A stretch of 32,000 nt of DNA from Nostoc punctiforme PCC 73102 (GCF_000020025.1 NC_010630.1:30001-62000); one strand, 5' to 3'; shown: positions 6,011 to 32,000, counted from the first letter of the stretch. The notes: generated by a model from the letters alone, not told the origin. Translations and numbers: made by a program.

Positions 6011-6943
6011 GTGATCAATATTTACTGTGCAGATATCGGAAACTACAGCAGTATCACCGCCCTCAAAGGTGAAAAACCTCGCGTGATGCGCTCAGTCTTC
6101 CAAGACGTGACTTACACCAGTGCCAGAGATTTGGACACTGATAATTCACCCTCTATCAAACTTGATGATAAGGTTTTAGTCCTTGGAGACCGCGCTACTA
6201 AGCAGAAAAATTCACAAACCGCAGCAGAAAGGGGTAAAGACCTGCCAGAATTCTTTAAACCGTTCACCTTGGCTGGATTGCGGCAGGATTTTGATGGTGT
6301 TGTCCGGTTTCTCGTCCCAGAACATTCTCAATGGCACGAAGACACAATCAGACGGACTCTAGTTGCAGAGCATCAAATTAACGTCAACGGCACAAACTAC
6401 AGACACCGAATCAAAAACGTTGAATTTTTCCTTGAGACAGATGTTGCTGTAATTAATGCTTACAGAAACGGCAAGCTTGACATGGATGGTGACACACTCG
6501 CTATTGATATCGGTGGCGGTACAACTAATTATGTTGTCATCACCCCATCCTCGGAAGTTCTCACCCGTCGTTCAATTCCCAAAGTGGGCGGTGTCTCTCT
6601 GGCTAACGACATCATCAATAGTGATTTGATGCAGAGTTACGCCAAGCGCGATAACGTTGCTTTTAAAGTGGCAAAGATGATGGACGCGATCGCTGACGGT
6701 TCTTTCACTTACGGACGTAAATATGACTTTAGCTCAGTCTTTCCAGGGTTGTTAGAAAACTGGTTTAACAATCTGATGGACAGCATCTCTACAGCTGCTA
6801 ATGACTATCTTGCAGACGTTACCAACGTGATGCTGATTGGTGGATGTGCTAATTTAGTCCGTCAAAAGCTGAGTGCCAAGCAAGGCTTTTACATTCCTGC
6901 TAATCCACAATTATCAAATATTCAAGCACTGTTGGCTATGTGA
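6011..6943 (+). CDS. parM: Actin-like plasmid segregation ATPase (ParM/StbA family)
   Basis: Actin-fold motifs are IYCADIGNYSS (phosphate-1), LAIDIGGGTTNYVV (phosphate-2) and MLIGGCANLV (adenosine). The GTG at 6011 lies 7 nt after AGGAG. The track start, TTG at 6005, is the alternative. Confidence 0.8.
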   Translation: MINIYCADIGNYSSITALKGEKPRVMRSVFQDVTYTSARDLDTDNSPSIKLDDKVLVLGDRATKQKNSQTAAERGKDLPEFFKPFTLAGLRQDFDGVVRFLVPEHSQWHEDTIRRTLVAEHQINVNGTNYRHRIKNVEFFLETDVAVINAYRNGKLDMDGDTLAIDIGGGTTNYVVITPSSEVLTRRSIPKVGGVSLANDIINSDLMQSYAKRDNVAFKVAKMMDAIADGSFTYGRKYDFSSVFPGLLENWFNNLMDSISTAANDYLADVTNVMLIGGCANLVRQKLSAKQGFYIPANPQLSNIQALLAM

Positions 6944-10533: not shown

Positions 10534-11004
10534 TTAAGAAGTAGTTTGATTTTGTTTATAATTCGCACCACAGTAAGGGCAGAATTTAAATTTCAATGAC
10601 ATAATTGGTTCATTGCAACTAACACAGCGATTTCGTAAAGCTGTGCCACAAGCAAAGCAATACTTCGACCGTAAATCTGTCCACATTTGGTCAGGGGTAG
10701 TTCCTGGAGTCCAACATTTAGGACAAAATTTTAACGTAGTTATTGTTTCTGGAGAGACTTTCTTCGCTGCCGCATCTAGGTACTCCGGTGGTATTCCCAA
10801 CGCAGCAGCTAGACCGCCTTTAGCCTTTTGATTGAGTCTATTAGTTTGTCCACCCTCAATTTTGCGGATGGTCTGGATATGTATTCCCGCTTTGAAACTC
10901 AACTCTTTTTGGGTTAAAGAAAGCTGACCTCGCAATCTCTGGACGTAATTAGCAAGCCCTTCTTCTCCCAATGGTCGCGTTGAATGTTCTGTTACAATCA
11001 TCAA
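10534..11004 (-). CDS. XRE-type HTH protein with a C-terminal double zinc ribbon, co-oriented with and 23 nt upstream of tnpA
   Basis: The HTH is LSLTQKELSFKAGIHIQTIRKIEGGQT. Four CxxC pairs are present: CPKC, CFAC, CVSC and CPYC. The ATG at 11001 is the likely start; the track begins at TTG 11004. Confidence 0.75.
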   Translation of the reverse strand: MMIVTEHSTRPLGEEGLANYVQRLRGQLSLTQKELSFKAGIHIQTIRKIEGGQTNRLNQKAKGGLAAALGIPPEYLDAAAKKVSPETITTLKFCPKCWTPGTTPDQMWTDLRSKYCFACGTALRNRCVSCNEPIMSLKFKFCPYCGANYKQNQTTS

Positions 11005-11088: not shown

Positions 11089-11982
11089 ATGATGACTTTA
11101 GCAGCTTTAGCCACCAAGTTTTTAGAACGTCCAGGACTAGCCAAAAGTACTCTGCGTTCATATCAGTCTACGATTATCCCCTTGCTCAAGGAGTACGGTC
11201 GATGGTCAATAGAAATCATCGACAGACAAGTTTTGATGGAATATCTCAATCATTTAACTGATGTTTCCTATACGACCCACCACCGTCATCAAGCTGTAAT
11301 CACGGCTTTGTTCAGTTTTGCTGTTGATATGGAATATCTCAAATCCAATCCGGTTGCGGGTCTCAGAAGACGTAAACCCAGTCGAGAACAAGGAGAACAC
11401 GCTACTGATGAGGCTGTGCGTTACCTTACTCCATACCAATTAAGTATCCTGTATCGTGTCATCAAAAAAGATGTTCGTTTGTCTGCATTGGTGCGTTTGT
11501 TGCATACTAGTGGCGCTAGGATTGCTGAGGTACTAGCTCTAAATTTAGATGAGATAGACCTCAAAGCCCGAAAATTTCAGGTTGTTGGGAAAGGCAACAA
11601 GCAACGGTGGTGTTTTTACAGTGAAGTAGCACTCAATAGTCTAAATCACTACATTGAATATTATAGACATCCTAAGCATCCAGCCCTGTTTACTGCTCAA
11701 CAGCCAAAGACTTTGGAAGTATCCCGGCTTTCTTACCGCATGGCGCATAAATCCTGGATTAAGCTCATCAGAGATAGTCCTGAACTCCAAGAAATTCGTA
11801 TTCATGACCTACGGCACACTTTTGCTACAGAGCGAGTGGGATTAATGGGAATTGAAGAACTCAGGGCGCTCATGGGACATGAAAGCATTCAGACAACATT
11901 ACGGTATCAAAAAGTAACGTCGCAACGTGCAGAAATTGTGGCACAATTGGCGTTGAAAAACCTACCAAATTTTTCTGAATAA
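11089..11982 (+). CDS. Tyrosine site-specific recombinase (XerC/D- or TnpI-like), candidate cointegrate resolvase
   Basis: Catalytic signature: SGARIAEVLAL (Arg), IHDLRHTFAT (HxxR) and LMGHESIQTTLRYQ (His...Tyr). An N-terminal SAM-like core-binding domain is present. Confidence 0.9.
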   Translation: MMTLAALATKFLERPGLAKSTLRSYQSTIIPLLKEYGRWSIEIIDRQVLMEYLNHLTDVSYTTHHRHQAVITALFSFAVDMEYLKSNPVAGLRRRKPSREQGEHATDEAVRYLTPYQLSILYRVIKKDVRLSALVRLLHTSGARIAEVLALNLDEIDLKARKFQVVGKGNKQRWCFYSEVALNSLNHYIEYYRHPKHPALFTAQQPKTLEVSRLSYRMAHKSWIKLIRDSPELQEIRIHDLRHTFATERVGLMGIEELRALMGHESIQTTLRYQKVTSQRAEIVAQLALKNLPNFSE

Positions 11983-18014: not shown

Positions 18015-18380
18015 ATGAAAGCATACTCGCTCGACTTACGTCAGAAGATAGTTAATACATACTTAGAAGGTGGAATATCACAACGTCATCTAGCTAAAAG
18101 ATTTGGAGTAGCTTTAAGCTTTATTGAAAAATTACTTAAACAATATCAAGAAACAGGAAATATAGCTCCTAAAATCAGGATACAACAAACTCCACCAAAG
18201 TTAAATGAACAGCAATTGAATGTTCTGAAAGAAATTGTGGAAACAAATAATGATGCTACGTTATCAGAGATTCGTAACGAGTTAGAAAAAAAGACAGGGG
18301 TTCTGATTGGTCGTTCAACAGTAGATAGAATGTTGCAAACGCTGGAAATTAGAGTAAAAAAAAACATTGCACCCCTCTGA
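18015..18380 (+). CDS. IS630-family transposase, N-terminal HTH part (orfA)
   Basis: An HTH-like N-terminus (YSLDLRQKIVNTYLEGGISQRHLAKRFGV) is present. The ORF ends just after the A9 run at 18356-18364. Confidence 0.8.
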   Translation: MKAYSLDLRQKIVNTYLEGGISQRHLAKRFGVALSFIEKLLKQYQETGNIAPKIRIQQTPPKLNEQQLNVLKEIVETNNDATLSEIRNELEKKTGVLIGRSTVDRMLQTLEIRVKKNIAPL

Positions 18381-18969
18381 GAAAGAAACAGAAAGAGTTC
18401 AATTATTAAGAGTAAAATTCTGGCTCCAAATTCAAGCTATATCTGCTGTAAACCTTGTATTTATTGACGAATCAGGCGTAAATATATCTTTAATCAGAAA
18501 ATTTGCTCGTGCCTCAAAGGGTAAAAGAGCGTATGGGTCTCGTCCTCAAAAGCGTAGTCAGAATGTCTCTATAATTGGTGCAATTGGGATCAAAGGTGTC
18601 ATTAGTAAATATAGTCTTGTCGGTGCAACCAACGGGCTGACATTTGAAGCTTTTATTTCTCAAAAATTAGTCCCACAACTTTGGGAAGGTGCTTATGTCG
18701 TGATGGACAATTGTTCCGTTCATAAAGGTAAAGAAATTGAAAAGTTAATTGAAGCAGCAGGAGCTAAATTAATTTATTTACCTCCATATTCTCCTGATTT
18801 TTCACCAATCGAAAATTGCTGGTCAAAGATTAAAAGTATACTACGTTCTTTGGGTGCTAGAAATTATCCAGATTTAGCAAAAGCGATTGAAACAGCTTTT
18901 AATAAAGTTTCTTTAAATGATATTCGCAATTGGTTTATCCATTGTTGCTACTGTACCTCACTAGACTAG
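18367..18969 (+). CDS. IS630-family transposase, DDE catalytic part (orfB)
   Basis: The signature is FIDESGV...VMDNCSVHKG...PPYSPDFSPIENCWSKIK. It lies in the +1 frame relative to orfA. Confidence 0.8.
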   Translation: MHPSEKETERVQLLRVKFWLQIQAISAVNLVFIDESGVNISLIRKFARASKGKRAYGSRPQKRSQNVSIIGAIGIKGVISKYSLVGATNGLTFEAFISQKLVPQLWEGAYVVMDNCSVHKGKEIEKLIEAAGAKLIYLPPYSPDFSPIENCWSKIKSILRSLGARNYPDLAKAIETAFNKVSLNDIRNWFIHCCYCTSLD

Positions 18970-20658: not shown

Positions 20659-21543
20659 ATGACTTATAAATATAAGCTAAAACTATACATTGTTAAGCCG
20701 ATGAAATGGCTCTTAGCAATTGCTGTGACTTTAAGCAGCACCACTCAATATCCAGTACAAGTAATAGCCCAAACAAAACAACCACCAACTACTAAGCAGC
20801 CTGTACAACCAGTTAAGACACCTGCTTCACCTCAACAACGTACCTCGCAACCAGTTTTTGTTTGGCCAAAAACACCTGCTCTAAGTCCTATATCTGGACG
20901 TAGAGTAGGAATGGGTAGTCGGGATAATTGTCCTGCGGTTGCAACTGCACTCACTGCTTTAGTACCATTGCAAGAGGCACAAAATGTTGGCAAACAGAGA
21001 GACGCATCAGTTATAGGGATTGTAGAGGGGCTAACCATCTCTGAAAGACCTACATTTTGGTTTTACGTTCCCTACACACGGGATTTAGCTGACTCAAGTG
21101 CTGAATTTATCTTACAGGACAGTGCAGAAACGAATATTTATGAAAAAGCGATCGCACTACCGTCGCAGCCTGGTGTCATTGGTATTTCTCTTCCTGATAA
21201 TGTTGCATCCTTAGAAGTAGGTAAAACATATCGCTGGTATTTAAAAGTTCGCTGCAACCAGAGAACAGCCAGCGTTCCTATATATGTTGAAGGAGACATT
21301 CAAAGAATCAATTTAGATTCTCGTGTGATGCAGCAATTGCAAACAACAACCGATCCCCAAGAAAAGATTGTTATTTATGCCAAAGAAGGTATTTGGTTCG
21401 ACGCTTTAACTATGCTGGCAAAACTACGCCTTGCTAATTCTAATGATGCATCTGTTAAAAAACATTGGCAAACTTTATTGCAATCTGTCAGTCTGGATAA
21501 TATTGCTACAGATCCTCTAGTGAATTCATCAAATGGCCAGTAA
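20659..21543 (+). CDS. Secreted DUF928-like protein
   Basis: A signal peptide follows the internal Met at 20701 (MKWLLAIAVTLSS...AQ). Blocks ERPTFWFYVPY, GKTYRWYLKV and VEGDIQRI match my memory of the cyanobacterial DUF928 family. Confidence 0.65.
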   Translation: MTYKYKLKLYIVKPMKWLLAIAVTLSSTTQYPVQVIAQTKQPPTTKQPVQPVKTPASPQQRTSQPVFVWPKTPALSPISGRRVGMGSRDNCPAVATALTALVPLQEAQNVGKQRDASVIGIVEGLTISERPTFWFYVPYTRDLADSSAEFILQDSAETNIYEKAIALPSQPGVIGISLPDNVASLEVGKTYRWYLKVRCNQRTASVPIYVEGDIQRINLDSRVMQQLQTTTDPQEKIVIYAKEGIWFDALTMLAKLRLANSNDASVKKHWQTLLQSVSLDNIATDPLVNSSNGQ

Positions 21544-21916
21544 TTTACAGCAGAATTTAGGTGTTTTTATACATAATCTTAGCGATCGCTTTTTTGTAAG
21601 TATCTAAAAGTTCTTTATCTTCTGCTGTCATTAGCCTCGATCTACTTCTTGGATATGATTAATACTCTCGAATTCCGACGTTGATCTACAGTCCCTCCTA
21701 TATTTGCGATTAATCCGACTCTGTTGGCGAATTGCGATCGCTTCCTCAAAGCTTTGAGATGTCCTAGCTCCTCACCCCAGAAATTGAAACACAACTATCT
21801 TAAGAAAGATAAATTAGGTTAAAACCCTCTTCCCTCCTGCTACCCGACCACGGTGATGCCTAGCTTGAAAATACTACTTCGACCAATATCGATGTAGATA
21901 CCTCAATACCCTAATT

Positions 21917-21997
21917 CCCCCTGCTCCCTGCCCCCTGCCCATTTTCATGCTTGGCTGTGAAATTTTTTCATCGGGACTGCCTCCTGCCTCCTGCCTC
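21917..21997. repeat. STRR-like heptamer tandem repeats
   Basis: CCCCTGC-like units x3 lie at 21917-21940, and (CTGCCTC)x3 lies at 21977-21997. Confidence 0.7.
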
Positions 21998-22260
21998 ATC
22001 CCAACTACAAATATTTACTCGGTTTTACTTACTTTGGTTCATTCTGTAAGCGATTTACAGATATTTTTGGCAATTTTTATCACACCAGTGAATACCTTCA
22101 TCTTATTCATACCTATAAAAATATAGGAGCCAAGCTTCTTAATGCTTAACTTAATGAAATTAAGAAACCTTGGATTTTAGCAAATAGGGAACAGAGAGAA
22201 TCTTGCAAGGGATCTTTCAAGTTTTACAGTATCAATTTTCAATTTTTGGGAGTATTGTTT

Positions 22261-24618
22261 ATGTCCAATCGCTTTTCTCGACGCAAATTTGTCAAATTTG
22301 CAGGTGGTGTCATAGCTGGAAGCGCAGCAGTAGGAAGTGCGCCTTTAGTTAACTTGCTTGCAGCTAATGCCCAAAGCTCTACAGGATATAAAGTTGTTGG
22401 TTATTTTGAAAACTGGTCTCAATACCGGCAAGGAGGCGGAAAGTTTTTGCCAGCACAGATTGATCCATCACTGTATACACACATAAACTTTGCTTTTGGC
22501 ATTTTCGGCTATATCACCAAAGGCATTGCGCCAAATAACCCGCGCCTTACTGGTGACTATAGAATCCAACCCATAGAGTGGAACGATCAGACGGTACTGT
22601 ACCCAGAAATCCAAAAACTGAAGCTAAAGAACCCTAATCTTAAGACTTTATTATCAATTGGTGGATGGGGCTTTAATGACCCCCAAGATCCGATTCAAAT
22701 AGGCACTTATACTTATAATCTTTTCAGCCAAATGGCAGCTTCGGCAGCAGGCAGGCAACAGTTTATTTATTCTGCGCTCGAATATGCTCAAAAATATAAA
22801 TTCGATGGAATTGACCTAGATTGGGAATATCCTGGTTATCAAGGTAGAGGAGGTAGACCAGAAGATTTCGCAAATTTCCTTGCTCTAGTCCGAGAGTTCC
22901 GTACTGCCATCTCTGGAAGAAACTTTCTTTTAACGATCGCCTCATCTGCCATAGTCCCATCAGGCGTACCAGATCAATATCGCTCCAATCCAGGATCTTA
23001 CTTTCAATGGCTGGCTCAGTGTGCCCAATATTTGGATTGGCTCAACGTCATGTCCTACGACTATCATGGTGCATTTCCTGACGATAAAGTAACAGGGATG
23101 AACGCACCCCTACCCCAAGACTCTACGCCCAAAGGGCCATTCAGCGTCAAAAATACTATCGAAGCCTACTTAGCAGCAGGGATTCCCAATAGCAAAATCG
23201 TTATGGGTATACCAACTTACGGTCGGACGTTCAAGGTATCCAGCCCACTGAGTTTAACCGATAATGGCCCAGGAAAGTCTTATAGTAGTGTCGGCCCTGC
23301 GGGAATATCAACTGTGACTCCAGGAGTTCTCTCATACTACGAGATTCAAAACCGGATCTCAAGCGGTTCTCTAACACGACGGTGGCATGAACCAACTCTG
23401 ACTCCCTACGCCTACAATAGCCAAACTAGTGAGTGGGTGAGCTATGACGATACTGAGTCAATCGGTTATAAAACCAGTTACTTGATTGAGAAAAAACTGG
23501 GTGGCGCGATGATTTGGGCGATCGGTCTAGACCAATTTCAAAGCGGTTTTCCTCTGATTAAAAGGGTAAAATCTATTTTAGATAATCCTGCATTAAGGCC
23601 AAAGTTGCCGTCTTACTTTGTGTCTGGTGGACGCAGATATAACCAATACTCCTTTTTATGTACCCATAATTCTTTTGCTAATTCTGACGAGAATTGGACT
23701 GCCGCTAACCAATTTAACACTATTACTAAGCAACTCAATGACGGTGTTAGGGCACTTATGCTTGATATATATAATGCTGAGTTCGATTCTCTATTAGGAG
23801 GAAAAGGTGTATATCTACTCCATAACTTTAATCCAAACGCTTCATTCCCGGGAATAAATTACGCTTTGCCTTTAAAACACCTGTATGATGCTTTAAATGA
23901 AGTAGTAGCTTTTCTCAAAAATAATCGCAACGAAGTAGTAACTATTTTCTTGGAAGATTACGTTTACCCTGACACTAATAAGTTAAAGGAAGAACTTGAC
24001 AAAGTTACAGGCTTGAAAGAGTTAATCTACGATCCGGATAACAATCCAAATTGGAGCGTCCGAGTTACAGGAGAATGGCCTTTACTATCCGAAATGATCG
24101 AATGGAATAAACGCTTAATTATTTTCAGCGATAAAAACCACAATAATTTAACTACAAAAATTGGAGTAGCTTACGATCGCAATTACATACTACAAAATTT
24201 TTGGAGTCTTGGAGTTGGTGGTACTGATTGGGATTGCCAGTCAAGATGGCGTGACGGATATCATTATCAAATAGTGCCAGAAGGAACGCCATATAGCCAG
24301 TGGAGATATGCAGATCCCCAATTACATCCTAAAGTTGTGGAGAAAAAATCAGCATTATTCCTTTTTAACCATTTTAGAGATACCCCTACTAGGATAACCG
24401 CAGCACTTGATAACACCTATGACAAAATCATGGACAGAATCGAGAATCGTTGTTGTAATTCAGCATTTCTGCCTAAAGAAAAGACAACAAAGCAACTGCC
24501 AAATTTTGTAGCTGTTGATTTTTGGCAAGAGCCAGTTTTATACAATAATAAAGCTGCTAATGTTGTCCAAGAACTAAATAGAAGATGGGAAAATAAACTG
24601 GGATGCGCTAATCGATAA
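22261..24618 (+). CDS. Tat-exported fusion protein: GH18 chitinase-like domain plus PI-PLC X-domain-like phosphodiesterase domain
   Basis: The twin-arginine signal is SRRKFVKFAGGVIAGSAAVG. The GH18 catalytic motif is FDGIDLDWEYP. The C-terminal half carries FLCTHNSFAN...GVRALMLDIY...EVVTIFLEDYV, typical of PLC-like phosphodiesterases of the At5g67130-like type. I prefer the ATG at 22261 over the TTG at 22246. Confidence 0.85.
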   Translation: MSNRFSRRKFVKFAGGVIAGSAAVGSAPLVNLLAANAQSSTGYKVVGYFENWSQYRQGGGKFLPAQIDPSLYTHINFAFGIFGYITKGIAPNNPRLTGDYRIQPIEWNDQTVLYPEIQKLKLKNPNLKTLLSIGGWGFNDPQDPIQIGTYTYNLFSQMAASAAGRQQFIYSALEYAQKYKFDGIDLDWEYPGYQGRGGRPEDFANFLALVREFRTAISGRNFLLTIASSAIVPSGVPDQYRSNPGSYFQWLAQCAQYLDWLNVMSYDYHGAFPDDKVTGMNAPLPQDSTPKGPFSVKNTIEAYLAAGIPNSKIVMGIPTYGRTFKVSSPLSLTDNGPGKSYSSVGPAGISTVTPGVLSYYEIQNRISSGSLTRRWHEPTLTPYAYNSQTSEWVSYDDTESIGYKTSYLIEKKLGGAMIWAIGLDQFQSGFPLIKRVKSILDNPALRPKLPSYFVSGGRRYNQYSFLCTHNSFANSDENWTAANQFNTITKQLNDGVRALMLDIYNAEFDSLLGGKGVYLLHNFNPNASFPGINYALPLKHLYDALNEVVAFLKNNRNEVVTIFLEDYVYPDTNKLKEELDKVTGLKELIYDPDNNPNWSVRVTGEWPLLSEMIEWNKRLIIFSDKNHNNLTTKIGVAYDRNYILQNFWSLGVGGTDWDCQSRWRDGYHYQIVPEGTPYSQWRYADPQLHPKVVEKKSALFLFNHFRDTPTRITAALDNTYDKIMDRIENRCCNSAFLPKEKTTKQLPNFVAVDFWQEPVLYNNKAANVVQELNRRWENKLGCANR

Positions 24619-24759
24619 TCCAGCAGATTGCAAGTTTATTAAGTACAGTGACAGCAGTGAATAAACCAGTTTTTTAGATGTTTAGGGTTGGCTAAATCAA
24701 ATGCAGTAGCAATTACAGCAGATTCAAATTAATGAAGTATATTATTTAGTTTTGATAGC

Positions 24760-24801
24760 TAGGCTCTGAGCCTATTTTCATTCAGAATTCATAATTCTGA
24801 A
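24760..24801. terminator. Two small hairpins between convergent genes; possible bidirectional terminator
   Basis: TAGGCT-ctg-AGCCTA followed by TTTT lies at 24760-24778. TTCAGAATT-cat-AATTCTGAA lies at 24781-24801. Confidence 0.35.
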
Positions 24802-24816
24802 TTCTGCTGTAAATCT

Positions 24817-27441
24817 CTACAACCAATTGCCAACTAAAACATAGGGTGCCCAATATCTAGGACGAGTATATTCAGAACCAGACAGTAGTTTTAGTTGAGC
24901 AAGACGTAGAGCTTCTGCTGTAGTTTTACCAGTCATTAATTGACGATAAAATTCATCAATAAACAAAGCTGTGGAGTTATCGCCAATTTGCCACAAGGAT
25001 GCTAAAGTACTCCGCGCACCAGCGCGCAGAGCAACTCCTGCTAATCCTAATGCAGCTCGGTTATCTCCTGTTGCTGTTTCGCAAGCACTCAAAACAAGTA
25101 ATTCAATTGGCTCTGCGCGTTTTTGCCCTCTACTTTTGAGCAAGCTGTCTAATTCACTGACATTGATGCGTCTATCAGCTGCTAGGATGAAAGTGTCTTT
25201 GGCTTTAGAGCTAAATTGCCCGTGAGTTGCTAAGTGAACAACTCTAAAAGGTTGAGCGTTAATAGTTTCTTCTAACGTTGCACTATTAAAATTTCCATCC
25301 AATAATGTGATTTTTGACACACCCAATCTTTGAATTAATTGCAGTTCAACTTTAACGTTAGGAAGTGGTGCAAAGTTTTCATTTTTGGGTGGTTGCGATA
25401 GTCCTCCAGCCAGAGCATTTAATTTGTGCTGTGCTAGAGGTTTGGGTGTAAATAGTTGTAGTCCTGGAGTAACAGCTACAGAGTATTTTTGCACTAAATA
25501 CTCTTTGCCATCATACAATGCAGACATCGGGATATTTCGCAACAAACCATCTGGAATAAAGACTAAAGTATTTACTTTCCTCTTTTTGAGGTCTGTTTCC
25601 ACTGGTTTTATTAACCACTCATAAAGCTGTTGAGAAAGTACTTGAAATTGCCGATTAGCATCGGGTTCCACTATTGTCTCTCGCATTTTTATAATGACTT
25701 GCTCTATTTCCTGACGGTTGACTACAAAAGTTTTATGTATCAACGGTTGATTGGGAAGTTTGACAATAATTTCTAAATGTTTATCTAGGATAATCGGATA
25801 GAAAATAGCAGTATCCGGGTTGTCACGGTTTACCACATTGTCTAACGCCACAAATTGGTTATTTAAGCAAGCTTCTCGGAAAAAATTGTCCAGTTCTGCT
25901 AATTGTAAAGCTTCAATTCGCTGACGTGCTTTATCTAAATCGGGCTTTCCTTGTCCTTTCTCTTGTAAAAGCAACTCTACAGACTGGCGATAAATCGGCT
26001 CTATGCGATCACGAAAATTAAATTGTACCTCTCGGTCAACTGCAACTAAATCACTACGAAGTAACTGTAGCCTTGCTACTGCTGCATCGTAAGCAGATAT
26101 CGCTTCTGGGATATTTCCTTGTGCTTTGAGCAAGCGTCCTAACTGCCACTCCCAGCGATAAGCTATATCTGAGGCATCGATTTTTTGCGCTAGAAACAAG
26201 GCTTGCTGTGTCAAATCCTGCGCGTCTTGCCATTGATGGTTCTGCTCGTAAACTTCTCCTAAGCTGCCTAATGCATAGGATTCGGCGCGTTCATCGCCTA
26301 TGATTTTAGCTTGTTGAACGCTGCTGGCTAGAATCTCTGCAATGTCTTTTTTATAAGCAATTTTAGTCAAAGTCTGAGCAAAATTGATCCTCGCATAAAT
26401 ACCAGCTTGATTTGTCGGTAAACTAGCTAATTGAGATTGGATTATAGGTATTAATGTTTTCGCTGCTGTTATTTGTTCTTTCTCAACCAGTAAGCTAAGT
26501 TGATTGATTTGAGCTTGCACTTTGGGAAGTGGGTTAGGCGCAATTTTGGCAGCATTTTCATAATGGATAATAGCATCTTTGATATTACTTAACGATCTCG
26601 CAGTATTACCGAGGCTAAATTCCGTCAAACTAATTTCTAGAGGTAGTTGCAGATGTTGAGCAATTTCTAAGGTTTGTTGTAAAATTTTCTGAGATGACTC
26701 TATTTCGCCTAATTGTTGTAAGACGTTACCAAGCGATCGCAAAGCTGTTACTTTTAGAAGTGAGTCAGGTTGAGCTTTTAACTGTTCGGATACTTCCTGC
26801 AATATATCCCGGCTACGACGGTAAAAACCAGAAACTCGTAAAGCTTGTGCTTGGTCGATCCGGCTGCGCGTTACTCCAGCATTGTCACCTAATTTTTTCC
26901 AGATTTGCTCTGCTTGCTGTGATGTTTTCACAGATGCATCAGTTTGTCCCTGTGCCAGTTGCAGTTCGCCCTGAATATTCAGAGTTTGTGCCAGAATTTC
27001 CCACAATTGAGACTTTGGATTGTTGACATTTAACGTTTGATTTTTCTCATCCCAGCCCAGCAAATTTAAGCTAGTGTCAATCGTTGCATCAGCTTTTTTC
27101 CACGAACCGATTTGCTGGTATACAAGGGAGAGGTTAGTCAGTGCTGCGGCTTGGGCAAGGTTATTGCTTTCTGCTTGAGAAATACGGACAGCTTGTTGTA
27201 AAACAGTTACCGCTTCAGTAAAGCGCCCAGCTTGATAAAGTGCTTCTCCTTGCTCAAGAAGTTGCTGTGATGTTGTCGCTGGGGGTTTATTGGTTTGGAT
27301 GTGAAACTCGTCTGGTAAATTTGTCTGGATTGGTTTGGCAAATGTGCTGGGGATAATAATCAAAAAAATAGCAAGAGTAAACAAGATTACAGGATTTACC
27401 GCAAATTTAACTACTCGCTTTGCCAGCTGAAGTTTTTGCAT
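24817..27441 (-). CDS. TPR-repeat CHAT-domain (caspase-like) protease with an N-terminal signal or anchor
   Basis: The N-terminal hydrophobic segment is VILFTLAIFLIIIPSTFA. A long TPR-like region follows. The C-terminal CHAT dyad context is VVHLATHGQF (His) and LLVLSACETATG (Cys). Confidence 0.9.
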   Translation of the reverse strand: MQKLQLAKRVVKFAVNPVILFTLAIFLIIIPSTFAKPIQTNLPDEFHIQTNKPPATTSQQLLEQGEALYQAGRFTEAVTVLQQAVRISQAESNNLAQAAALTNLSLVYQQIGSWKKADATIDTSLNLLGWDEKNQTLNVNNPKSQLWEILAQTLNIQGELQLAQGQTDASVKTSQQAEQIWKKLGDNAGVTRSRIDQAQALRVSGFYRRSRDILQEVSEQLKAQPDSLLKVTALRSLGNVLQQLGEIESSQKILQQTLEIAQHLQLPLEISLTEFSLGNTARSLSNIKDAIIHYENAAKIAPNPLPKVQAQINQLSLLVEKEQITAAKTLIPIIQSQLASLPTNQAGIYARINFAQTLTKIAYKKDIAEILASSVQQAKIIGDERAESYALGSLGEVYEQNHQWQDAQDLTQQALFLAQKIDASDIAYRWEWQLGRLLKAQGNIPEAISAYDAAVARLQLLRSDLVAVDREVQFNFRDRIEPIYRQSVELLLQEKGQGKPDLDKARQRIEALQLAELDNFFREACLNNQFVALDNVVNRDNPDTAIFYPIILDKHLEIIVKLPNQPLIHKTFVVNRQEIEQVIIKMRETIVEPDANRQFQVLSQQLYEWLIKPVETDLKKRKVNTLVFIPDGLLRNIPMSALYDGKEYLVQKYSVAVTPGLQLFTPKPLAQHKLNALAGGLSQPPKNENFAPLPNVKVELQLIQRLGVSKITLLDGNFNSATLEETINAQPFRVVHLATHGQFSSKAKDTFILAADRRINVSELDSLLKSRGQKRAEPIELLVLSACETATGDNRAALGLAGVALRAGARSTLASLWQIGDNSTALFIDEFYRQLMTGKTTAEALRLAQLKLLSGSEYTRPRYWAPYVLVGNWL

Positions 27442-27451
27442 ATTTCATACC

Positions 27452-30400
27452 TTACCGAGATACAGGACAGGAAGCAGGTGTTTGCCAAAGGCTGTGAGGG
27501 TTGAATTGAGGAACTTCTGCTACTAGCTGTAAGTTTCCTTTACTATCAACTAGCCAACCAGAAGCTTCTACAATTGGAGTTGCAGCAGTAATTTGAGAAC
27601 TACTTGAAACTGCTGTTGGTTGCACCTGAGTCGTTGTGTTTGCGAAGTTTTCTGGTTTTGCTCTCAATCTGACCCACGCAGATACAGTACTAGAATCTTG
27701 TAAAGGCTCAGTAGGATTGATGGGTAGTCCACTGCGTCCTGTTGCCACAAAAGTATTTTGGAATTGTCGAGTTCCAGGCGTGCAGGCATTGGAAATTTGG
27801 TTAGAAGCATCAACCAGATTGATTGGGAGTTGGACTAAGCCGTTAGTGGGGTCTATATCTGGTGGAGTAATGTCTACATTGCCGCTTAAATCAGGAGTTG
27901 CTCCTTTTGCGCTAATGTCACTTGTGTTAGGGGACGGCTCTTTCCTGGACTGGATACCAAAAATTCCCGCAGCATTCTTAATGGTGACATTCCCACCACG
28001 GAAGTTTTCCGAATCAGCGCGGATGTCGCTGTTTTCTGATGGTACGGCGATAATGAAGCCATTTTTGGCATCAATAGTTATGTTACCGCCAGTTATATCG
28101 TTTCCACTAGCGTTAGTCGTAATGCTGCTACCTCGACGTAATAATAAAAAAGGTGAGTTGAGAAAGATATTTCCCCCACCTCCGGTAGTATCAGCGCGAA
28201 TTTTTCCTTGGTTGTCTAAAAGAATAGAGTCTGCGTTAACTGTTAATGCACCGGCTTCTCCCGAACCGACACTGCTGACTGTGACTTGTGCCCCATCCCG
28301 CACTGTTAACTTTCGTGTATCAAGAGTTAAATCGCCTCCTCTACCCCTACCTGTAGTTTCAGCCGAGATAATAGAACCATTGCCACGGATGGCGATAGAC
28401 TCAGGAGCCTTGACCGTTAGCGTACCACCTTTACCACTATTTAACGTCGATGCTGATATTTGGGCACCATCTTCTAAATTAACTAGCAAGTTCTGCTCAT
28501 TATTAAGGGGTTGAATAGTTAGGTTTCCAGCGTTTGCGGAACTGAGTGTTTGAGCAAATAGTCCGCTATTGGCACTGAGTTGCATTTCTCGAACATTTAC
28601 TGTAATGTCACCAGCATCACCACTACCAGAGGTCGAAGTCAGTAGTCTGCCGCCTGTTGTTGTTTGAAAAAGATTTGCATTGACTGTAATGTTACCTCCT
28701 TGAGAATCAGTCTGAGTTGTAGCATCTAAAACAGCATTATCAACTACCCTCAGATTGGCTGTTGTCAGGTTGATGTTCCCACCTTGACCAATTTCAGCAG
28801 AGTTTGTATTCCTCAATAAACTATTTTCGCCACCACTACTTGAGCGTAAAGCGCTACCAGTACCAGAGATATTAACTTGTTTGGTTGCATTGACAGTAAT
28901 TTCTCCAGCCTTTCCCAGTCCTAGTGTCTGCGTTTGTACAATTCCGCCGTTTGTGACATCCAGGAAACGAGTTTGCAAGTTAATCTTGCCACTATCACCC
29001 CTCGCTTCTCCTGCTACTCCGCTTAATATTGAGCCATTGTCAACTAGGATGGAATCAGCTTTGATAGAGATGTCACCTGCATTGCTACCTTGTCCGAATG
29101 TTGTGGTGGCGATCGCTCCTCCATCTTTAATGATTAATTGCCCGGTTTTGATGGTCAAGTTGCCAGCATTGCCAGTAGAATCAATGGTTGCTTGAGTAAA
29201 CACGCCGCTGGGAAAGACTGTTCCAGCAGCAGGTTCTTGTTCAATATTACCAGTGGGGATAAAACCGCCAAGGAATGTATTGGGTGGAATTCCTGCTAAT
29301 CCTAAATCTTGACCCAGTTCAAAAATACTTCGGGGACTTTCAGTTGTTGCTCCACTTAACTCTAAAAATTTGGATGTTACCAAAGTGATATTTCCACCTT
29401 GCCCATTACTATGTGTGGAAGCAGATACTTGTGCGCCACTTTTGAAAGAAATGGAAGGAGCGGTAATCTCAATGTCCCCGCCCTTACCAGAGCCAAAGGT
29501 ATCGCTAGAGATAACGGTGTTGTCCAAAATTAAAGGTGCATCACTGATAATAGTAATGTTTCCTGAACCTAACCCCCCGGTGGAGTTAATTGAAGAGCTA
29601 CCTGGAACCAGCTTGAATTGATTAGTGTTGCTATCAAATTCCCCACGGCTCAAAAGCTGGATGTTATTGGTTGCGAAAAGGCTAATATTGCCCCCATTTC
29701 CCTCTGGTTTAGAATTAGAGAAAGAAAAAGAGGATAAAGGCCCAGCGGAAATGCTGCCGTTGACAGCTTTAATAGTAATTACACCTCCATTTTTAACCGA
29801 ACCATTAAACGAAGCTGAGCGAGATTCCACATCACCCGTAGAAATATTTCCGTTATTAGTATTAAGGCTAATATTGCCTCCATTGCCCGCTTGCTCATCC
29901 CCACCAAACGAGAAAGAGTACAAACCACTAGTGGAAATGTTCCCGTTGGTGGTATTGAGGCTAATATTGCCCCCATTTCCCGCTGTATAACCAGCACCTG
30001 AAGTAGAGAATAAAGAACCAGCGATGGTGATACCATTATTAGCCTTAAGGTCAATATTGCCCGCATTTCCTGCTAGATTAAGATCGCCGTTACCACTTGA
30101 AGAATCCAAAGAAATAGGTGAGGAAGAGTCCAAAACGCCAGTGATGTTGATGCTGTTACCAGCTTCAAGGGTAATTGCACCACCATTTCCTGCAATATAA
30201 TTAGATGATTCCGAGGTAGAATCCAAACCATCAGCAATGTTGATATTGTTGCCAGCTTTAAGGGTAATTGCACCCCCATTTCCTGCTGTGTGATTAGAGT
30301 CTGAGGAAGAGTCGAACCTACCAGTAATGTTGATGTCGTTGGCAGCTTTTAGGCTAATATTGCCCCCATTTCCCGCTGTGCCATCATCCTCATCATAATT

Positions 30401-32000
30401 GAAATAAAGCGAGTAAGAGTACATACTACCAGTGCTAATGCTGCCATTGGTGGCTTCAAGAGCGATCGCTCCTCCGTTGGTGTTATTAGAGTCAGGAGCT
30501 TGTTGTCCATTACTGCTGATGAGTTGAGTATTCACATCCCCTGATGCTGCCAAAAGACTAACTATACCCCCAATCCCATTAAACGGTTGTAATACAACAT
30601 CTCCACCTATCGTAATTCCAGGAGGTACATTGCCAGTACCGTAAGTAGGTATTGAGCCAGAATTAACACCCCCGTAAGCTAGATTCGACTGTCCCGAACG
30701 TAGAATTAACGCTGAACGAGTACTAAGGGTTTCTGTATCTGCTCCTATAGGAAAAGAAGTGATATTATCTGGTCTAGTAATATTGATGTCACCTTGGAAG
30801 CGAATATCACCTGTGGCTTCAACTAATAGCGAGGCTCCTACATAATTGGCAGCAACATCAACATTGCTATTAGCACTGATAATTGAGCCATATTTACTAA
30901 TAAAAGTGGCTAACCCTCCGGAGCCGCTACGAATCAAAACACTATCATCACTCTGAAAGTTACCATTGTCAGCAATTATTTGATCGGCAAGAAAAGTTAG
31001 ATTACCGCCACTTATAGAACCGATCTTAATGTTGCCATTGGCTGTTATGAGGCTAATATCTCCTCCATTTCTGGCTACGCTATCAGTAGCAAGAGAGTTA
31101 GAGTCCAAATTACTGGCGGCAATGTTACCGTTAAAAGCAATAATATCAATTGCACCCCCATCTCCTGCTATCTCACCACTGGAAAATGAGTATAAACTGC
31201 TTGTAGAAACGTTATTTTTAGAGGTAGATAGAGTAATCGCACCACCCTGACCTGCACTACCAAAATTAGCTTGTGAATTAGAATTCAAATTGCCACTGAT
31301 ATTGATGCCATTGGTAGATTCAAGAGTAATTGCTCCACCATTTCTGGCATTGCCAAACTCAGAGAGTGAGTCCGAACTCAAATTTTGTGCTTCAATCTTA
31401 CCGTTGGTAGTGCTAATGGTAACTATGCCTCCATTGGCTGCATTACCAACATTGTTAAGAGAAGAGGAGGATAAATCATCTTCAATATTGATGTCATCGG
31501 CAGCTTTAAGGCTAATTGCACCACCATTTCCGCCATTGCCAGAGCTAGAAAAGGAAGAAGAATTTATATTATAAATATAAATACCTTCAGAGGATTGAAG
31601 AGTAATTGCACCACCATTTCCGGCATTGCCAGAGCTAGAAAAGGAAGAAGAATTTATATTATCAGTATAAATACTAGCTTCAGAGGATTGAAGAATAATT
31701 GCACCACCATTTCCGGCATTGCCAGATTCAGAGTATGAGTAAGAGAGCAAATCATCTGTTTGAATATTGCCATTGGCAGTTAAAGCGATCGCGCCCCCCT
31801 GACCTGCACTGGCAAAACGAGAATCCGAAGAAGAGTCTAAATCGCCAGTGGTAATGTCCTTAGCAGATTCAAGGCTGATGTTGCCCCCATTTGCCGTACT
31901 GCCAGATTCAGAGTATGAGTAAGACAATAAATCATCTGTTTGAATATTGCCATTGGCAGTTAAAGCGATCGCGCCCCCCTGACCTGCACTGGCAAAACGA
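27452..32000 (-). CDS. Giant filamentous-haemagglutinin-like beta-helical repeat exoprotein; the N-terminus lies beyond the right edge
   Basis: The frame stays open to nt 32000, so the track start at 31927 is only an internal TTG. GNGGNISL/GGAITL-type repeats run throughout. The C-terminal block FVATGRSGLPINPTE...IVEASGWLVDSKGNLQLVA resembles cyanobacterial TpsA-like proteins as I recall them. Confidence 0.8.
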   Translation of the reverse strand, partial: RFASAGQGGAIALTANGNIQTDDLLSYSYSESGSTANGGNISLESAKDITTGDLDSSSDSRFASAGQGGAIALTANGNIQTDDLLSYSYSESGNAGNGGAIILQSSEASIYTDNINSSSFSSSGNAGNGGAITLQSSEGIYIYNINSSSFSSSGNGGNGGAISLKAADDINIEDDLSSSSLNNVGNAANGGIVTISTTNGKIEAQNLSSDSLSEFGNARNGGAITLESTNGINISGNLNSNSQANFGSAGQGGAITLSTSKNNVSTSSLYSFSSGEIAGDGGAIDIIAFNGNIAASNLDSNSLATDSVARNGGDISLITANGNIKIGSISGGNLTFLADQIIADNGNFQSDDSVLIRSGSGGLATFISKYGSIISANSNVDVAANYVGASLLVEATGDIRFQGDINITRPDNITSFPIGADTETLSTRSALILRSGQSNLAYGGVNSGSIPTYGTGNVPPGITIGGDVVLQPFNGIGGIVSLLAASGDVNTQLISSNGQQAPDSNNTNGGAIALEATNGSISTGSMYSYSLYFNYDEDDGTAGNGGNISLKAANDINITGRFDSSSDSNHTAGNGGAITLKAGNNINIADGLDSTSESSNYIAGNGGAITLEAGNSINITGVLDSSSPISLDSSSGNGDLNLAGNAGNIDLKANNGITIAGSLFSTSGAGYTAGNGGNISLNTTNGNISTSGLYSFSFGGDEQAGNGGNISLNTNNGNISTGDVESRSASFNGSVKNGGVITIKAVNGSISAGPLSSFSFSNSKPEGNGGNISLFATNNIQLLSRGEFDSNTNQFKLVPGSSSINSTGGLGSGNITIISDAPLILDNTVISSDTFGSGKGGDIEITAPSISFKSGAQVSASTHSNGQGGNITLVTSKFLELSGATTESPRSIFELGQDLGLAGIPPNTFLGGFIPTGNIEQEPAAGTVFPSGVFTQATIDSTGNAGNLTIKTGQLIIKDGGAIATTTFGQGSNAGDISIKADSILVDNGSILSGVAGEARGDSGKINLQTRFLDVTNGGIVQTQTLGLGKAGEITVNATKQVNISGTGSALRSSSGGENSLLRNTNSAEIGQGGNINLTTANLRVVDNAVLDATTQTDSQGGNITVNANLFQTTTGGRLLTSTSGSGDAGDITVNVREMQLSANSGLFAQTLSSANAGNLTIQPLNNEQNLLVNLEDGAQISASTLNSGKGGTLTVKAPESIAIRGNGSIISAETTGRGRGGDLTLDTRKLTVRDGAQVTVSSVGSGEAGALTVNADSILLDNQGKIRADTTGGGGNIFLNSPFLLLRRGSSITTNASGNDITGGNITIDAKNGFIIAVPSENSDIRADSENFRGGNVTIKNAAGIFGIQSRKEPSPNTSDISAKGATPDLSGNVDITPPDIDPTNGLVQLPINLVDASNQISNACTPGTRQFQNTFVATGRSGLPINPTEPLQDSSTVSAWVRLRAKPENFANTTTQVQPTAVSSSSQITAATPIVEASGWLVDSKGNLQLVAEVPQFNPHSLWQTPASCPVSR
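31511..32000. repeat. Near-identical in-frame tandem repeats (90-93 bp and 180 bp periods) in the FHA-like gene
   Basis: 31514-31572 and 31604-31662 differ at 1 nt. 31721-31820 and 31901-32000 differ at 3 nt. Confidence 0.9.

What the first reader, a model, noticed from the sequence alone, without database searches (positions are those of the whole stretch)
20659..32000. Envelope gene cluster: FHA-like giant exoprotein, signal-anchored TPR-CHAT protease, DUF928 protein and an exported GH18/PLC enzyme
Four neighbouring genes all carry export signals or exoprotein architecture. The FHA-like gene stop (27452) and the CHAT start (27441) are only 10 nt apart, which suggests an operon. The DUF928-like gene and the Tat-exported hydrolase converge on that operon.

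From memory, FHA-like, CHAT and DUF928 genes recur together in cyanobacterial genomes, often with a ShlB/FhaC-type TpsB transporter. I know of no assigned function for that association.

My inference is that the extracytoplasmic caspase-fold CHAT enzyme processes, or acts as a transpeptidase on, the two-partner-secretion-like exoprotein, with DUF928 as an accessory factor. If so, this would be a surface maturation or anchoring system distinct from classical TpsAB or CDI loci. There is no small immunity-like ORF after the exoprotein.
Basis: partly seen in the sequence, partly recalled or inferred. Interest (0 to 1): 0.75.

Follow-up and report, generated by a model that had tools for sequence, protein, structure and literature searches.

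The report
Cyanobacterial exoprotein–CHAT protease–DUF928 envelope module
Three of the four genes (a giant secreted beta-helix protein, an exported caspase-like CHAT protease and an exported DUF928 protein) form an uncharacterised module that recurs in nearly every related cyanobacterial locus I sampled, while the chitinase-like gene is a strain-specific insertion.

Summary
The window encodes four genes:
- DUF928 at 20659-21543(+), Pfam E=5e-65.
- A Tat-signal GH18 fusion enzyme at 22246-24618(+).
- A signal-bearing TPR-CHAT protease at 24817-27441(-).
- A beta-helical exoprotein at 27452->32000(-), 5' end cut by the window edge. It stops 10 nt before the CHAT start.

The exoprotein has no Pfam hit in the window, but orthologues carry an N-terminal TPS domain.

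Across 121 related loci the layout DUF928> <CHAT <TpsA is almost invariant. In 60 of 69 genome loci CHAT sits convergent to DUF928, at a median gap of 44 nt. GH18 is never there, so it is an insertion, not a component.

Related loci also carry a cytoplasmic-caspase/periplasmic-CHASE2 membrane protein, DUF1822, a sigma factor and, in 7 diverse loci, a TpsB. None of these lies in the window.

The exoprotein ends in a conserved, poorly structured tail of about 135 aa. It holds the protein's only two cysteines, about 104 residues apart, and invariant linear motifs.

Best reading (inferred, not shown): the exported CHAT protease cuts this tail, which I assume stays in the periplasm, to mature or release the surface filament, much as LapG cuts CdrA. 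DUF928 and the CHASE2 sensor would be regulators. I found no literature on this link.

The parts
20659..21543 (+). DUF928 protein (294 aa from the first ATG; likely true start is Met15 at 20701). Order of features: signal-like N-terminus, Pro/Gln-rich linker, invariant motif SGRRVGMGSRDNCP (aa 79-92), then a beta-sandwich plus a four-helix domain. It has exactly two Cys (C91, C199).
   Evidence: Pfam PF06051 E=5.4e-65. Motif and invariant columns. AF2 model confident for aa 90-290. Cys positions and second Met.
22246..24618 (+). Tat-exported GH18 (chitinase-like, DGIDLDWE motif at aa 187) fused to a C-terminal PI-PLC-X/Rv2075c-like domain. Likely ATG start at 22261. This is a strain-specific insertion between DUF928 and CHAT, not a module component.
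   Evidence: Pfam GH18 E=1.5e-78. TIGR01409 Tat signal. Precomputed PF26178/PF26146 hits. Absent from the DUF928-CHAT interval of all related loci. Window gap between DUF928 and CHAT is 3274 nt against a median of 44 nt.
24817..27441 (-). TPR-CHAT caspase-fold cysteine protease, 874 aa. N-terminal signal or anchor (aa ~15-35), TPR array (aa ~60-460), CHAT domain (aa 602-872).
   Evidence: Pfam CHAT E=4.2e-63 plus TPR families. 79 of 81 orthologues have only an N-terminal hydrophobic segment.
25081..25224 (-). Span holding the codons of the CHAT catalytic dyad: His740 (25222-25224, ATHGQ) and Cys787 (25081-25083, SACET).
   Evidence: Both columns conserved in at least 97% of 83 orthologues. Coordinates.
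27452..32000 (-). 3' part (1515 codons plus stop) of a giant repetitive beta-helical exoprotein, a TpsA-type protein by orthology. The N-terminus with signal peptide and TPS domain lies beyond the window edge.
   Evidence: ORF open to base 32000. No Pfam hit in the window. Orthologues have a TPS domain. AF2 beta-helix with pLDDT >90. 90-93 nt tandem repeats.
27455..27859 (-). Conserved C-terminal tail (aa ~1381-1515). Features in order: LPINLVDAS (27803-27829), Cys1406 (in NACTPG, 27773-27790), TGRSGLP (27722-27742), variable linker, beta-hairpin IVEASGW...LQLVA (from 27574 downwards), Cys1511 (in ASCPVSR, 27455-27475). Proposed periplasmic retention and protease-recognition module.
   Evidence: Consensus and invariant columns. 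The only two Cys of the protein, and 62 of 65 full-length orthologues likewise have two Cys spaced 96-107 residues. Low pLDDT apart from one hairpin.

Best explanation
**What it is**
The window holds the three-gene core of a widespread, uncharacterised cyanobacterial envelope module.
- A two-partner-secretion (TpsA-type) beta-helical surface filament.
- An exported TPR-CHAT caspase-fold cysteine protease, probably co-transcribed with the filament gene: its ATG lies 10 nt after the filament's stop codon.
- A convergent exported DUF928 protein.

**Proposed mechanism (inferred)**
1. The filament is threaded outward through a TpsB pore encoded elsewhere.
2. Its ~135-residue unstructured C-terminal tail stays in the periplasm. 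There its two invariant cysteines close a ~104-residue disulfide loop that acts as a stopper.
3. The TPR array of the periplasmic CHAT enzyme binds the tail's invariant linear motifs (LPxNLVDAS, FVxTGRGGLPxxPxEPL). The His/Cys site then cuts the tail and matures or releases the filament.
4. DUF928 modulates this step. Related loci add a membrane protein with a periplasmic CHASE2 domain and a cytoplasmic caspase domain, plus DUF1822 and a sigma factor. These would couple the step to transcription.

**Functional analogy**
The nearest known analogue is CdrA/CdrB with LapG/LapD, but the parts here are not homologous to them.

**The GH18 gene**
The GH18/PLC gene is an unrelated exported enzyme inserted in this lineage.
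For: **Shown**
- Domain identities.
- DUF928> <CHAT adjacency: 60 of 69 Nostocales genome loci, median gap 44 nt. A CHAT gene is present in 23 of 23 diverse metagenome loci that have enough flank.
- TpsA is present in 47 of 52 genome loci with at least 8 kb of flank.
- The same gene set is kept through several different gene orders, while other neighbours vary.
- TpsB lies next to CHAT in 7 diverse loci and in the Nostoc plasmid pNsp_a; in several other annotated Nostoc plasmids the TpsB match also overlaps a CHAT gene.
- Caspase-CHASE2 is present in 27 of 41 diverse loci, usually directly upstream of DUF928.
- In the closest relative, sigma, DUF1822 and caspase-CHASE2 lie about 9 kb upstream of TpsA.
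- 79 of 81 CHAT orthologues have an N-terminal signal and no other TM segment.
- The CHAT dyad is conserved in at least 97% of 83 orthologues.
- 62 of 65 TpsA orthologues have exactly two Cys, both in the tail, 96-107 residues apart.
- C150, F161, P173, G232 and C255 are invariant across 58 tails, and G165, R166, G168, P170, E222, A223 and G225 are conserved in at least 90%.
- The tail is predicted disordered after a confident beta-helix.

**Precedent from the literature**
- A periplasmic cysteine protease, LapG, releases the TpsA adhesin CdrA. CdrA is held in CdrB by a C-terminal cysteine hook.
Against: - No cleavage, localisation or interaction was tested. All mechanistic steps are inferred from anatomy and neighbourhood.
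- The window, and the +/-10 kb of the Nostocales loci, hold no TpsB. Secretion therefore depends on an unlinked pore that I could not identify for this organism.
- The window shows no CHASE2, DUF1822 or sigma genes.
- If the CHAT site is the invariant TGR/GG, it lies inside the putative disulfide loop. A cut there would not free the filament unless the bond is reduced.
- DUF928-CHAT pairs occur without a detectable TpsA nearby, and TpsA-TpsB-CHAT occurs without a Pfam-detectable DUF928. The true substrate could therefore be DUF928 or something else.
- The signal peptide might act as an uncleaved anchor.
- Many of the 80 genome loci are close relatives, so the counts are not independent events.
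Confidence: 0.5

Rival explanations
1. Trans-envelope signalling is the primary function. The surface filament is a sensor for contact or damage. CHAT cleavage of the filament tail or of DUF928 produces a periplasmic ligand for the CHASE2 domain. The cytoplasmic caspase domain of that protein then cleaves DUF1822 or itself to free the sigma factor. In this reading adhesin release is secondary or absent.
For: - Caspase-CHASE2 lies directly upstream of DUF928 on the same strand in many diverse loci. In L088 the gap is 8 nt.
- Sigma, DUF1822 and CHASE2 are co-linear with the core in several distinct orders.
- Kaur et al. 2021 predicted that EACC2-caspase, ECF sigma and DUF1822 form a stimulus-activated proteolytic switch.
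- DUF928 carries its own invariant Arg/Gly-rich N-terminal motif in a disordered region.
Against: - The regulatory genes are missing from the window and from many Nostoc loci within +/-10 kb.
- No ligand or cleavage is known.
- This rival is compatible with the best explanation rather than exclusive of it.
Confidence: 0.25
2. DUF928, not the exoprotein, is the CHAT substrate or partner (zymogen-inhibitor or adaptor pair). The TpsA gene is merely a frequent neighbour or a co-regulated cargo.
For: - DUF928-CHAT adjacency is the most constant feature: 23 of 23 diverse loci with enough flank. It persists where no TpsA is seen (L097, L114, L111).
- The DUF928 motif GxPxGRxxGGASRGxCP loosely resembles the tail motif TGRGGLP.
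Against: - In the window TpsA and CHAT are only 10 nt apart on one strand, and in many Nostoc orthologues the two ORFs overlap.
- TpsA-TpsB-CHAT exists without a Pfam DUF928.
- The TpsA tail is as conserved as DUF928.
Confidence: 0.12
3. The module is a conflict or defence system: either a contact-dependent toxin delivery (CDI-like) system, or an anti-phage or programmed-cell-death module that uses caspase-fold effectors and travels on mobile DNA.
For: - The window's left 20 kb is plasmid-like and transposon-rich.
- Related loci lie on Nostoc plasmids.
- EACC2-caspase systems were interpreted as conflict systems.
- A mutation in a filamentous-hemagglutinin-type gene is listed for a phage-resistant Nostoc 7120 substrain.
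Against: - The C-terminus is conserved, not polymorphic. There is no toxin domain and no immunity ORF.
- No PADLOC system match beyond generic TPR/CHAT similarity.
- The CHAT protein is exported, not cytoplasmic.
Confidence: 0.08
4. There is no functional link: the genes are neighbours only through inherited synteny among related Nostocales.
For: The 80 genome loci are all Nostocales, with DUF928 55-88% identical. Many are near-duplicate Nostoc MAGs.
Against: - The association holds in metagenome loci whose DUF928 is only 29-46% identical to a distant family member (the search query P0133), itself about 41% identical to the window protein.
- It survives inversions and reshuffling.
- Flanking genes are not conserved.
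Confidence: 0.03

Closest known systems
CdrA/CdrB two-partner secretion adhesin controlled by LapG/LapD (Pseudomonas aeruginosa)
   Same: - A TpsA-type surface filament whose C-terminal tail stays in the periplasm.
- Cysteines near the C-terminus thought to form a hook that holds it in the pore.
- A periplasmic cysteine protease that cuts the tail to shed the filament.
- An inner-membrane protein with a periplasmic domain that regulates the protease.
   Different: - The protease here is a TPR-CHAT caspase-fold enzyme, not a LapG-type transglutaminase-like protease.
- There is no LapD (GGDEF/EAL) receptor. The candidate regulator is a caspase-CHASE2 protein with DUF1822 and a sigma factor.
- DUF928 has no Lap counterpart.
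- The tail motifs differ (no TAAG).
- Nothing has been tested experimentally.
FhaB/FhaC of Bordetella (classical TPS with C-terminal prodomain processing)
   Same: - TPS domain, beta-helix and TpsB pore.
- A C-terminal region that remains intracellular (title of Noel et al. 2012, seen) and, from my own knowledge, is removed by proteases.
- Accessory proteases encoded outside the core pair.
   Different: - Here the tail is short (~135 aa) and strongly conserved.
- The protease gene directly follows tpsA.
- In Nostocales the TpsB is not linked.
EACC2-caspase + ECF sigma + DUF1822 systems (Kaur, Burroughs, Iyer, Aravind 2021, PMC8195603)
   Same: The sigma, DUF1822 and caspase-CHASE2 trio found next to the core module in related loci matches that description.
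   Different: - My term searches of that paper (DUF1822, CHASE2, CHAT, hemagglutinin/haemagglutinin, FhaB, filamentous, secretion) found no mention of the TpsA / TPR-CHAT / DUF928 partners; 'DUF928' itself is absent from it.
- The trio is absent from this window.
Contact-dependent inhibition (CdiA/CdiB/CdiI)
   Same: A large TPS-type beta-helical exoprotein.
   Different: No polymorphic toxin C-terminus, no immunity gene, and a conserved Cys-bracketed tail instead.

Membership tests
TpsA (type Vb / two-partner secretion exoprotein) | N-terminal TPS secretion domain (PF05860) | tested here: inconclusive
   The N-terminus lies outside the window, and all public contigs with the identical CHAT break inside the repeats. 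Orthologues do have it: L001 E=4e-54, L088 E=3e-63, and 47 of 52 loci by local HMM.
TpsA (type Vb / two-partner secretion exoprotein) | Right-handed beta-helix passenger | tested here: met
   The AF2 model of the last 259 aa shows its first ~125 residues as regular beta strands with pLDDT >90. The upstream sequence is repetitive and Gly/Asn/Ser-rich. No Pfam repeat family matched.
TpsA (type Vb / two-partner secretion exoprotein) | Cognate TpsB (POTRA_2 + ShlB) transporter | tested here: not met
   None in the window or within +/-10 kb of the 80 Nostocales loci. Present beside CHAT in 7 diverse loci and in the Nostoc plasmid pNsp_a, with TpsB/CHAT co-annotation in several other Nostoc plasmids. 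The rest of this genome could not be searched.
CHAT (PF12770, caspase-hemoglobinase fold peptidase) | CHAT domain with catalytic His and Cys | tested here: met
   E=4.2e-63 over 3-289 of 289 profile positions. His740 (ATHGQ) and Cys787 (SACET) are conserved in at least 97% of 83 orthologues.
DUF928 (PF06051) | Match to the family profile over its full length | tested here: met
   219 bits against a cut-off of 26, over profile positions 2-184 of 184. 4867 representative clusters found with E<=1e-3.
GH18 chitinase-like hydrolase | GH18 domain with the DxxDxDxE catalytic motif | tested here: met
   PF00704 E=1.5e-78. DGIDLDWE at aa 187. Enzyme activity not tested.
Tat-exported protein | Twin-arginine signal | tested here: met
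   TIGR01409, 17.4 bits against a cut-off of 16.7. Motif SRRKFVKF followed by a hydrophobic stretch. The margin is small.
Lap-type regulated adhesin release (LapG/LapD) | LapG-family (transglutaminase-like) protease and LapD c-di-GMP receptor | tested here: not met
   No such domains in the window proteins scanned or in the recurrent gene clusters of related loci whose representatives I scanned. The resemblance is functional only.
CDI (CdiA-CT/CdiI) | Variable toxin C-terminus followed by a small immunity gene | tested here: not met
   The C-terminal 135 aa are conserved across orders. The next gene is CHAT, 10 nt downstream.
EACC2-caspase / DUF1822 / ECF-sigma system | Presence of the three genes | tested here: not met
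   Absent from the window by six-frame HMM search. Present in related loci and in the closest relative. The window's right flank is unknown.

The most novel reading that the evidence does not exclude
The module is a cyanobacterial envelope-spanning proteolytic relay built from two caspase-fold proteases on opposite sides of the inner membrane. One is a periplasmic TPR-CHAT enzyme acting on the tail of a two-partner-secreted surface filament and/or on DUF928. The other is a cytoplasmic caspase fused to a periplasmic CHASE2 sensor. Together they convert the state of a cell-surface filament (contact, damage, phage binding) into release of the filament and activation of a dedicated sigma factor.
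Probability: 0.3. Interest if true: 0.8.

Novelty: new variant of a known kind. Interest (0 to 1): 0.62.

Why it matters
- DUF928 is a very large family with no assigned function: 4867 representative clusters at 50% identity.
- CHAT proteases are known mainly from heterocyst regulation (HetF) and CRISPR-linked Craspase (own knowledge). An exported CHAT enzyme tied to a type Vb secretion substrate would be a new role for caspase-fold enzymes in bacteria.
- The module gives a testable model for how filamentous cyanobacteria attach, release or sense through surface filaments. This bears on biofilms, symbiosis (many of the loci come from lichen cyanobionts and hornwort/liverwort-associated Nostoc strains) and phage adsorption.
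- It would also supply the missing periplasmic input for the predicted caspase-CHASE2 / DUF1822 / sigma switch.

Tried and rejected
1. **Extending the contig.** Every public contig with the identical CHAT protein ends 4112 nt upstream of the exoprotein stop, inside the repeats. The N-terminus could not be recovered.
2. **Diverse DUF928 alignments as queries.** Alignments of 35 and 9 sequences were too divergent for the locus scan. A four-sequence alignment worked.
4. **Sequence search of solved structures.** With CHAT it found only TPR matches. With the GH18 C-terminal half it found nothing meaningful.
5. **Promoter and terminator scan.** No more sites than in shuffled sequence.
6. **GH18 as a module member.** Rejected.
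7. **CDI or defence assignment.** Rejected for lack of defining features.
8. **Homology between the DUF928 N-terminal motif and the tail motif.** Both contain GR..GG, but the resemblance is too short to test. I kept it only as a note.
9. **Cooley et al. 2016 (CdrA cysteine hook).** The paper is not held in the library. Its content is cited through later papers.


Full report
**1. What is in the window**

ORF listing and translation give four genes.
- A 294-aa protein at 20659-21543(+).
- A 790-aa protein at 22246-24618(+).
- An 874-aa protein at 24817-27441(-).
- A reading frame on the minus strand that ends at 27452 and is still open at base 32000. It contributes 1515 codons, and its N-terminus is outside the window.

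Pfam assigns these as follows.
- DUF928: E=5.4e-65, full profile length.
- GH18: E=1.5e-78.
- TPR repeats plus CHAT: E=4.2e-63.
- Nothing for the large protein.

NCBIfam adds a marginal but positive Tat signal for the GH18 protein (17.4 bits against 16.7; SRRKF). Precomputed annotations give its C-terminal half Rv2075c_cat and PI-PLC_X matches. The GH18 catalytic motif DGIDLDWE is intact.

The junction reads ...CGG TAA GGTATGAAAT ATG..., so the exoprotein stop and the CHAT start are separated by 10 nt.

The left 20 kb of the window is plasmid-like and rich in mobile elements.
- Two Tn3-family transposases.
- A ParM/ALP actin-like protein.
- A tyrosine recombinase.
- An IS630-type element.

**2. 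Is the large protein 'FHA-like'?**

This cannot be shown from the window alone. The closest public DNA is Nostoc sp. UHCC 0926 plasmid pn1, 84% identical over CHAT and the 3' part of the exoprotein gene. It shows the layout DUF928(+), CHAT(-) and a 1512-aa exoprotein(-) whose N-terminus is a TPS secretion domain (E=4e-54).

An AlphaFold model of the last 259 residues of the window protein, built on 58 homologues, has two parts.
- The first ~125 residues form a regular beta-helix with pLDDT >90.
- The last ~135 residues have low confidence apart from one beta-hairpin.

Public assemblies that encode the identical CHAT protein all break inside the exoprotein repeats, so the N-terminus could not be recovered. 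They do confirm the gene order in at least six independent samples.

**3. Co-occurrence**

A scan of one genome per species with a DUF928 alignment returned 80 loci, all Nostocales. tblastn and local HMMs gave these results.
- Of 69 loci with at least 3 kb downstream of DUF928, 60 have the CHAT orthologue (64-85% identity, full length) convergent within 1.5 kb. The median gap is 44 nt.
- Four more have CHAT elsewhere in the locus, two have only a divergent CHAT, and three have none.
- Of 52 loci with at least 8 kb of flank, 47 have a TPS-domain exoprotein with the same C-terminal tail, normally directly upstream of CHAT.

DUF928 is a very large family, with 4867 representative clusters. A second scan of metagenome contigs used four distant members as query. 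It returned 41 loci whose DUF928 is only 29-46% identical to the first query sequence, P0133. All 23 loci with enough flank hold a CHAT gene, 13 of them in the same convergent position.

All-against-all clustering shows that no other flanking gene is comparably conserved. The shared genes appear in several different orders and orientations. This argues for functional linkage rather than inherited synteny.

The GH18 gene is absent from the DUF928-CHAT interval of every one of these loci; tblastn found only two weak (27-31% identity) GH18 matches, elsewhere in L058 and L076. The 3.27-kb DUF928-CHAT interval of the window has no DNA counterpart in them. GH18/PLC is therefore a lineage-specific insertion.

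**4. The module is larger than the finding**

Clustering plus Pfam identified further recurrent partners.
- **Caspase-CHASE2 protein.** About 790 aa. It has a cytoplasmic caspase-like domain (weak CHAT hit; AGHS and NSCD motifs), TM helices and a CHASE2 domain. It has no N-terminal signal in 30 of 34 cases and TM-like segments in 34 of 34.
- **DUF1822.**
- **A ~400-aa sigma-70-region-4 protein.**
- **A TpsB (POTRA_2 + ShlB),** lying between tpsA and CHAT in 7 diverse loci.

Caspase-CHASE2 is found in 27 of 41 diverse loci, mostly directly upstream of DUF928 on the same strand. In L088 the gap is 8 nt.

Typical gene-order strings are these.
- SIG> D1822> CHASE2> D928> CHAT< TpsA<
- D928> CHAT< TpsA< CHASE2< D1822< SIG<
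- CHASE2> D928> CHAT< TPSB< TpsA<

The closest relative has sigma, DUF1822 and caspase-CHASE2 about 9 kb upstream of tpsA. The window may therefore have them beyond its right edge. A six-frame HMM search finds none inside it.

The Nostoc plasmid pNsp_a carries a tpsA-tpsB-CHAT operon, and in several other annotated Nostoc plasmids the TpsB match also overlaps a CHAT gene. In pNsp_a the convergent gene is not a Pfam DUF928.

Kaur et al. 2021 already described the sigma / DUF1822 / EACC2-caspase trio as a predicted stimulus-activated proteolytic switch. My term searches of that paper found no mention of a link to TpsA, TPR-CHAT or DUF928.

**5. Anatomy relevant to mechanism**

CHAT:
- 79 of 81 full-length orthologues have one N-terminal hydrophobic segment and no other. 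The enzyme is therefore exported or N-terminally anchored outside the cytoplasm.
- His740 and Cys787 are conserved in at least 97% of 83 orthologues.

Exoprotein tail, in order:
- LPxNLVDASxQI
- Cys
- FVxTGRGGLPxxPxEPL
- a variable linker
- IVEAxGW...G.I.LVA
- Cys, about 5 residues from the end

The two Cys, F161, P173 and G232 are invariant across 58 homologues, and the GRxG...P core and the EA.G of the hairpin are conserved in at least 90% of them. In 62 of 65 full-length orthologues (770-2000 aa) these are the only two cysteines of the mature protein, spaced 96-107 residues apart. The window protein has C1406 and C1511 only.

DUF928:
- It has exactly two conserved Cys.
- Its N-terminal region is disordered and carries the family-wide motif GxPxGRxxGGASRGxCP.
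- Its folded part is a beta-sandwich plus a four-helix unit with only generic structural neighbours.

**6. Interpretation**

The features are:
- a type Vb filament;
- a short conserved unstructured C-terminal tail bracketed by its only two cysteines;
- an exported cysteine protease with a peptide-binding TPR array, encoded 10 nt downstream;
- an inner-membrane protein with a periplasmic sensor domain nearby in related loci.

This is the logic of CdrA/CdrB with LapG/LapD. There a C-terminal cysteine hook holds the adhesin in its pore, and a periplasmic cysteine protease cuts the tail to shed it. No component here is homologous to LapG or LapD, so this is an analogy, not membership.

I commit to regulated periplasmic processing of the filament tail by CHAT as the most likely mechanism, at about 0.5. 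DUF928 and caspase-CHASE2 / DUF1822 / sigma would form the regulatory or signalling arm.

What is shown and what is inferred:
- Shown: domain identities, conserved residues, predicted export signals and gene linkage.
- Inferred: the substrate, the cleavage site, the disulfide, the topology of the tail and the direction of signalling.

Weak points:
- No linked TpsB in Nostocales.
- The strongest motif lies inside the putative disulfide loop.
- DUF928-CHAT pairs occur without a nearby TpsA.

**7. Alternatives**

- **Signalling relay.** A relay in which proteolysis feeds the CHASE2 sensor is compatible with the data and may be the main purpose.
- **DUF928 as the real CHAT substrate.** This is possible.
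- **CDI-like or defence roles.** These are unlikely: the C-terminus is conserved, there is no immunity gene, no PADLOC system matches, and the protease is exported.
- **Mere synteny.** This is contradicted by the diverse loci.

**8. Novelty**

Full-text searches gave little.
- One unrelated paper mentions DUF928.
- No paper combines CHAT with TpsB or two-partner secretion in cyanobacteria.
- One paper lists a mutated filamentous-hemagglutinin-type gene in a phage-resistant Nostoc 7120 substrain.

The association is visible in public annotations but, as far as I can see, is neither described nor explained. I rate it a new variant of a known kind: protease-controlled type Vb surface filaments, with unrelated parts and an added caspase/sigma arm. 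Interest is 0.62.

Noticed in passing
window 1-20100: The left part of the window is plasmid-like and rich in mobile elements. It holds a partial Tn3 transposase (71-1183), a full Tn3 transposase with DUF4158 (7532-10510, -), a ParM/ALP actin-like segregation protein (6005-6943), an HTH plus double-zinc-ribbon protein (10534-11004, -), a tyrosine recombinase (11089-11982) and an IS630-type element split into HTH and DDE_3 ORFs (18015-18969). These occupy the position where related loci carry the caspase-CHASE2 gene.
   Followed up: partly
window 1931-4252 (-): A 773-aa ORF with no Pfam hit lies in a stretch of raised GC (0.465) and strong negative AT skew (-0.31). Its identity is unknown.
   Followed up: no
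window 31748-32000 (-) and 30120-30380, 31513-31726: There are near-exact direct repeats inside the exoprotein gene. About 100 nt at 32000-31900 recur 180 nt downstream, and there are 90-93 nt tandem units. All public short-read contigs of this strain break in this region.
   Followed up: partly
L016-L036 and other Nostoc loci, e.g. L028 18277-18651 (+) and L016 17367-19619 (+): Upstream of tpsA, 22 Nostocales loci carry one or several small double-glycine-leader peptides with a beta/gamma-crystallin (peptidase inhibitor I36-like) domain; an ABC-type ATPase cluster recurs in 21 loci, the member at this position scanned (L016) being a C39-peptidase ABC exporter. A protease-inhibitor-like secreted peptide next to a protease module may be more than coincidence.
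   Followed up: no
L001 23278-29678 (Nostoc sp. UHCC 0926 pn1): Between tpsA and the caspase-CHASE2 gene, the closest relative encodes an S8 subtilase and a protein that combines lysozyme, a peptidoglycan-binding domain and a YkuD L,D-transpeptidase domain. These are further envelope-active enzymes near the module.
   Followed up: no
window 20893-20934 (DUF928 aa 79-92) and 27722-27742 (tail TGRSGLP): The invariant DUF928 motif (G.P.GR..GGASRG.CP) and the invariant tail motif (TGRGGLP) both centre on Gly-Arg followed by glycines and sit in disordered regions next to a conserved Cys. They could be two recognition sites for the same protease. The match is too short to test statistically.
   Followed up: partly
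L041, L053, L068, L069, L075: Several loci have two tandem tpsA genes, each with the full Cys-bracketed tail, but only one CHAT gene. This fits one protease serving several filaments.
   Followed up: no
L129 18153-19184 (-) (Nostoc sp. ATCC 53789 pNsp_a): In a tpsA-tpsB-CHAT operon without a Pfam DUF928, the convergent gene encodes a 343-aa signal-bearing hypothetical protein, which may be a very distant DUF928 analogue (judged from the sequence by eye only).
   Followed up: partly
L016-L024 and others, e.g. L023 6495-8699 (+): In a group of Nostoc loci the gene directly upstream of DUF928 is a CHASE3-PAS histidine kinase rather than the caspase-CHASE2 protein. This may be a swapped sensor or simply local synteny.
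   Followed up: no
literature, PMC10811720: A phage-resistant Nostoc sp. [quoted passage not shown] Another substrain carries a mutation in the CHAT gene all2170. I did not determine whether these belong to this module.
   Followed up: no
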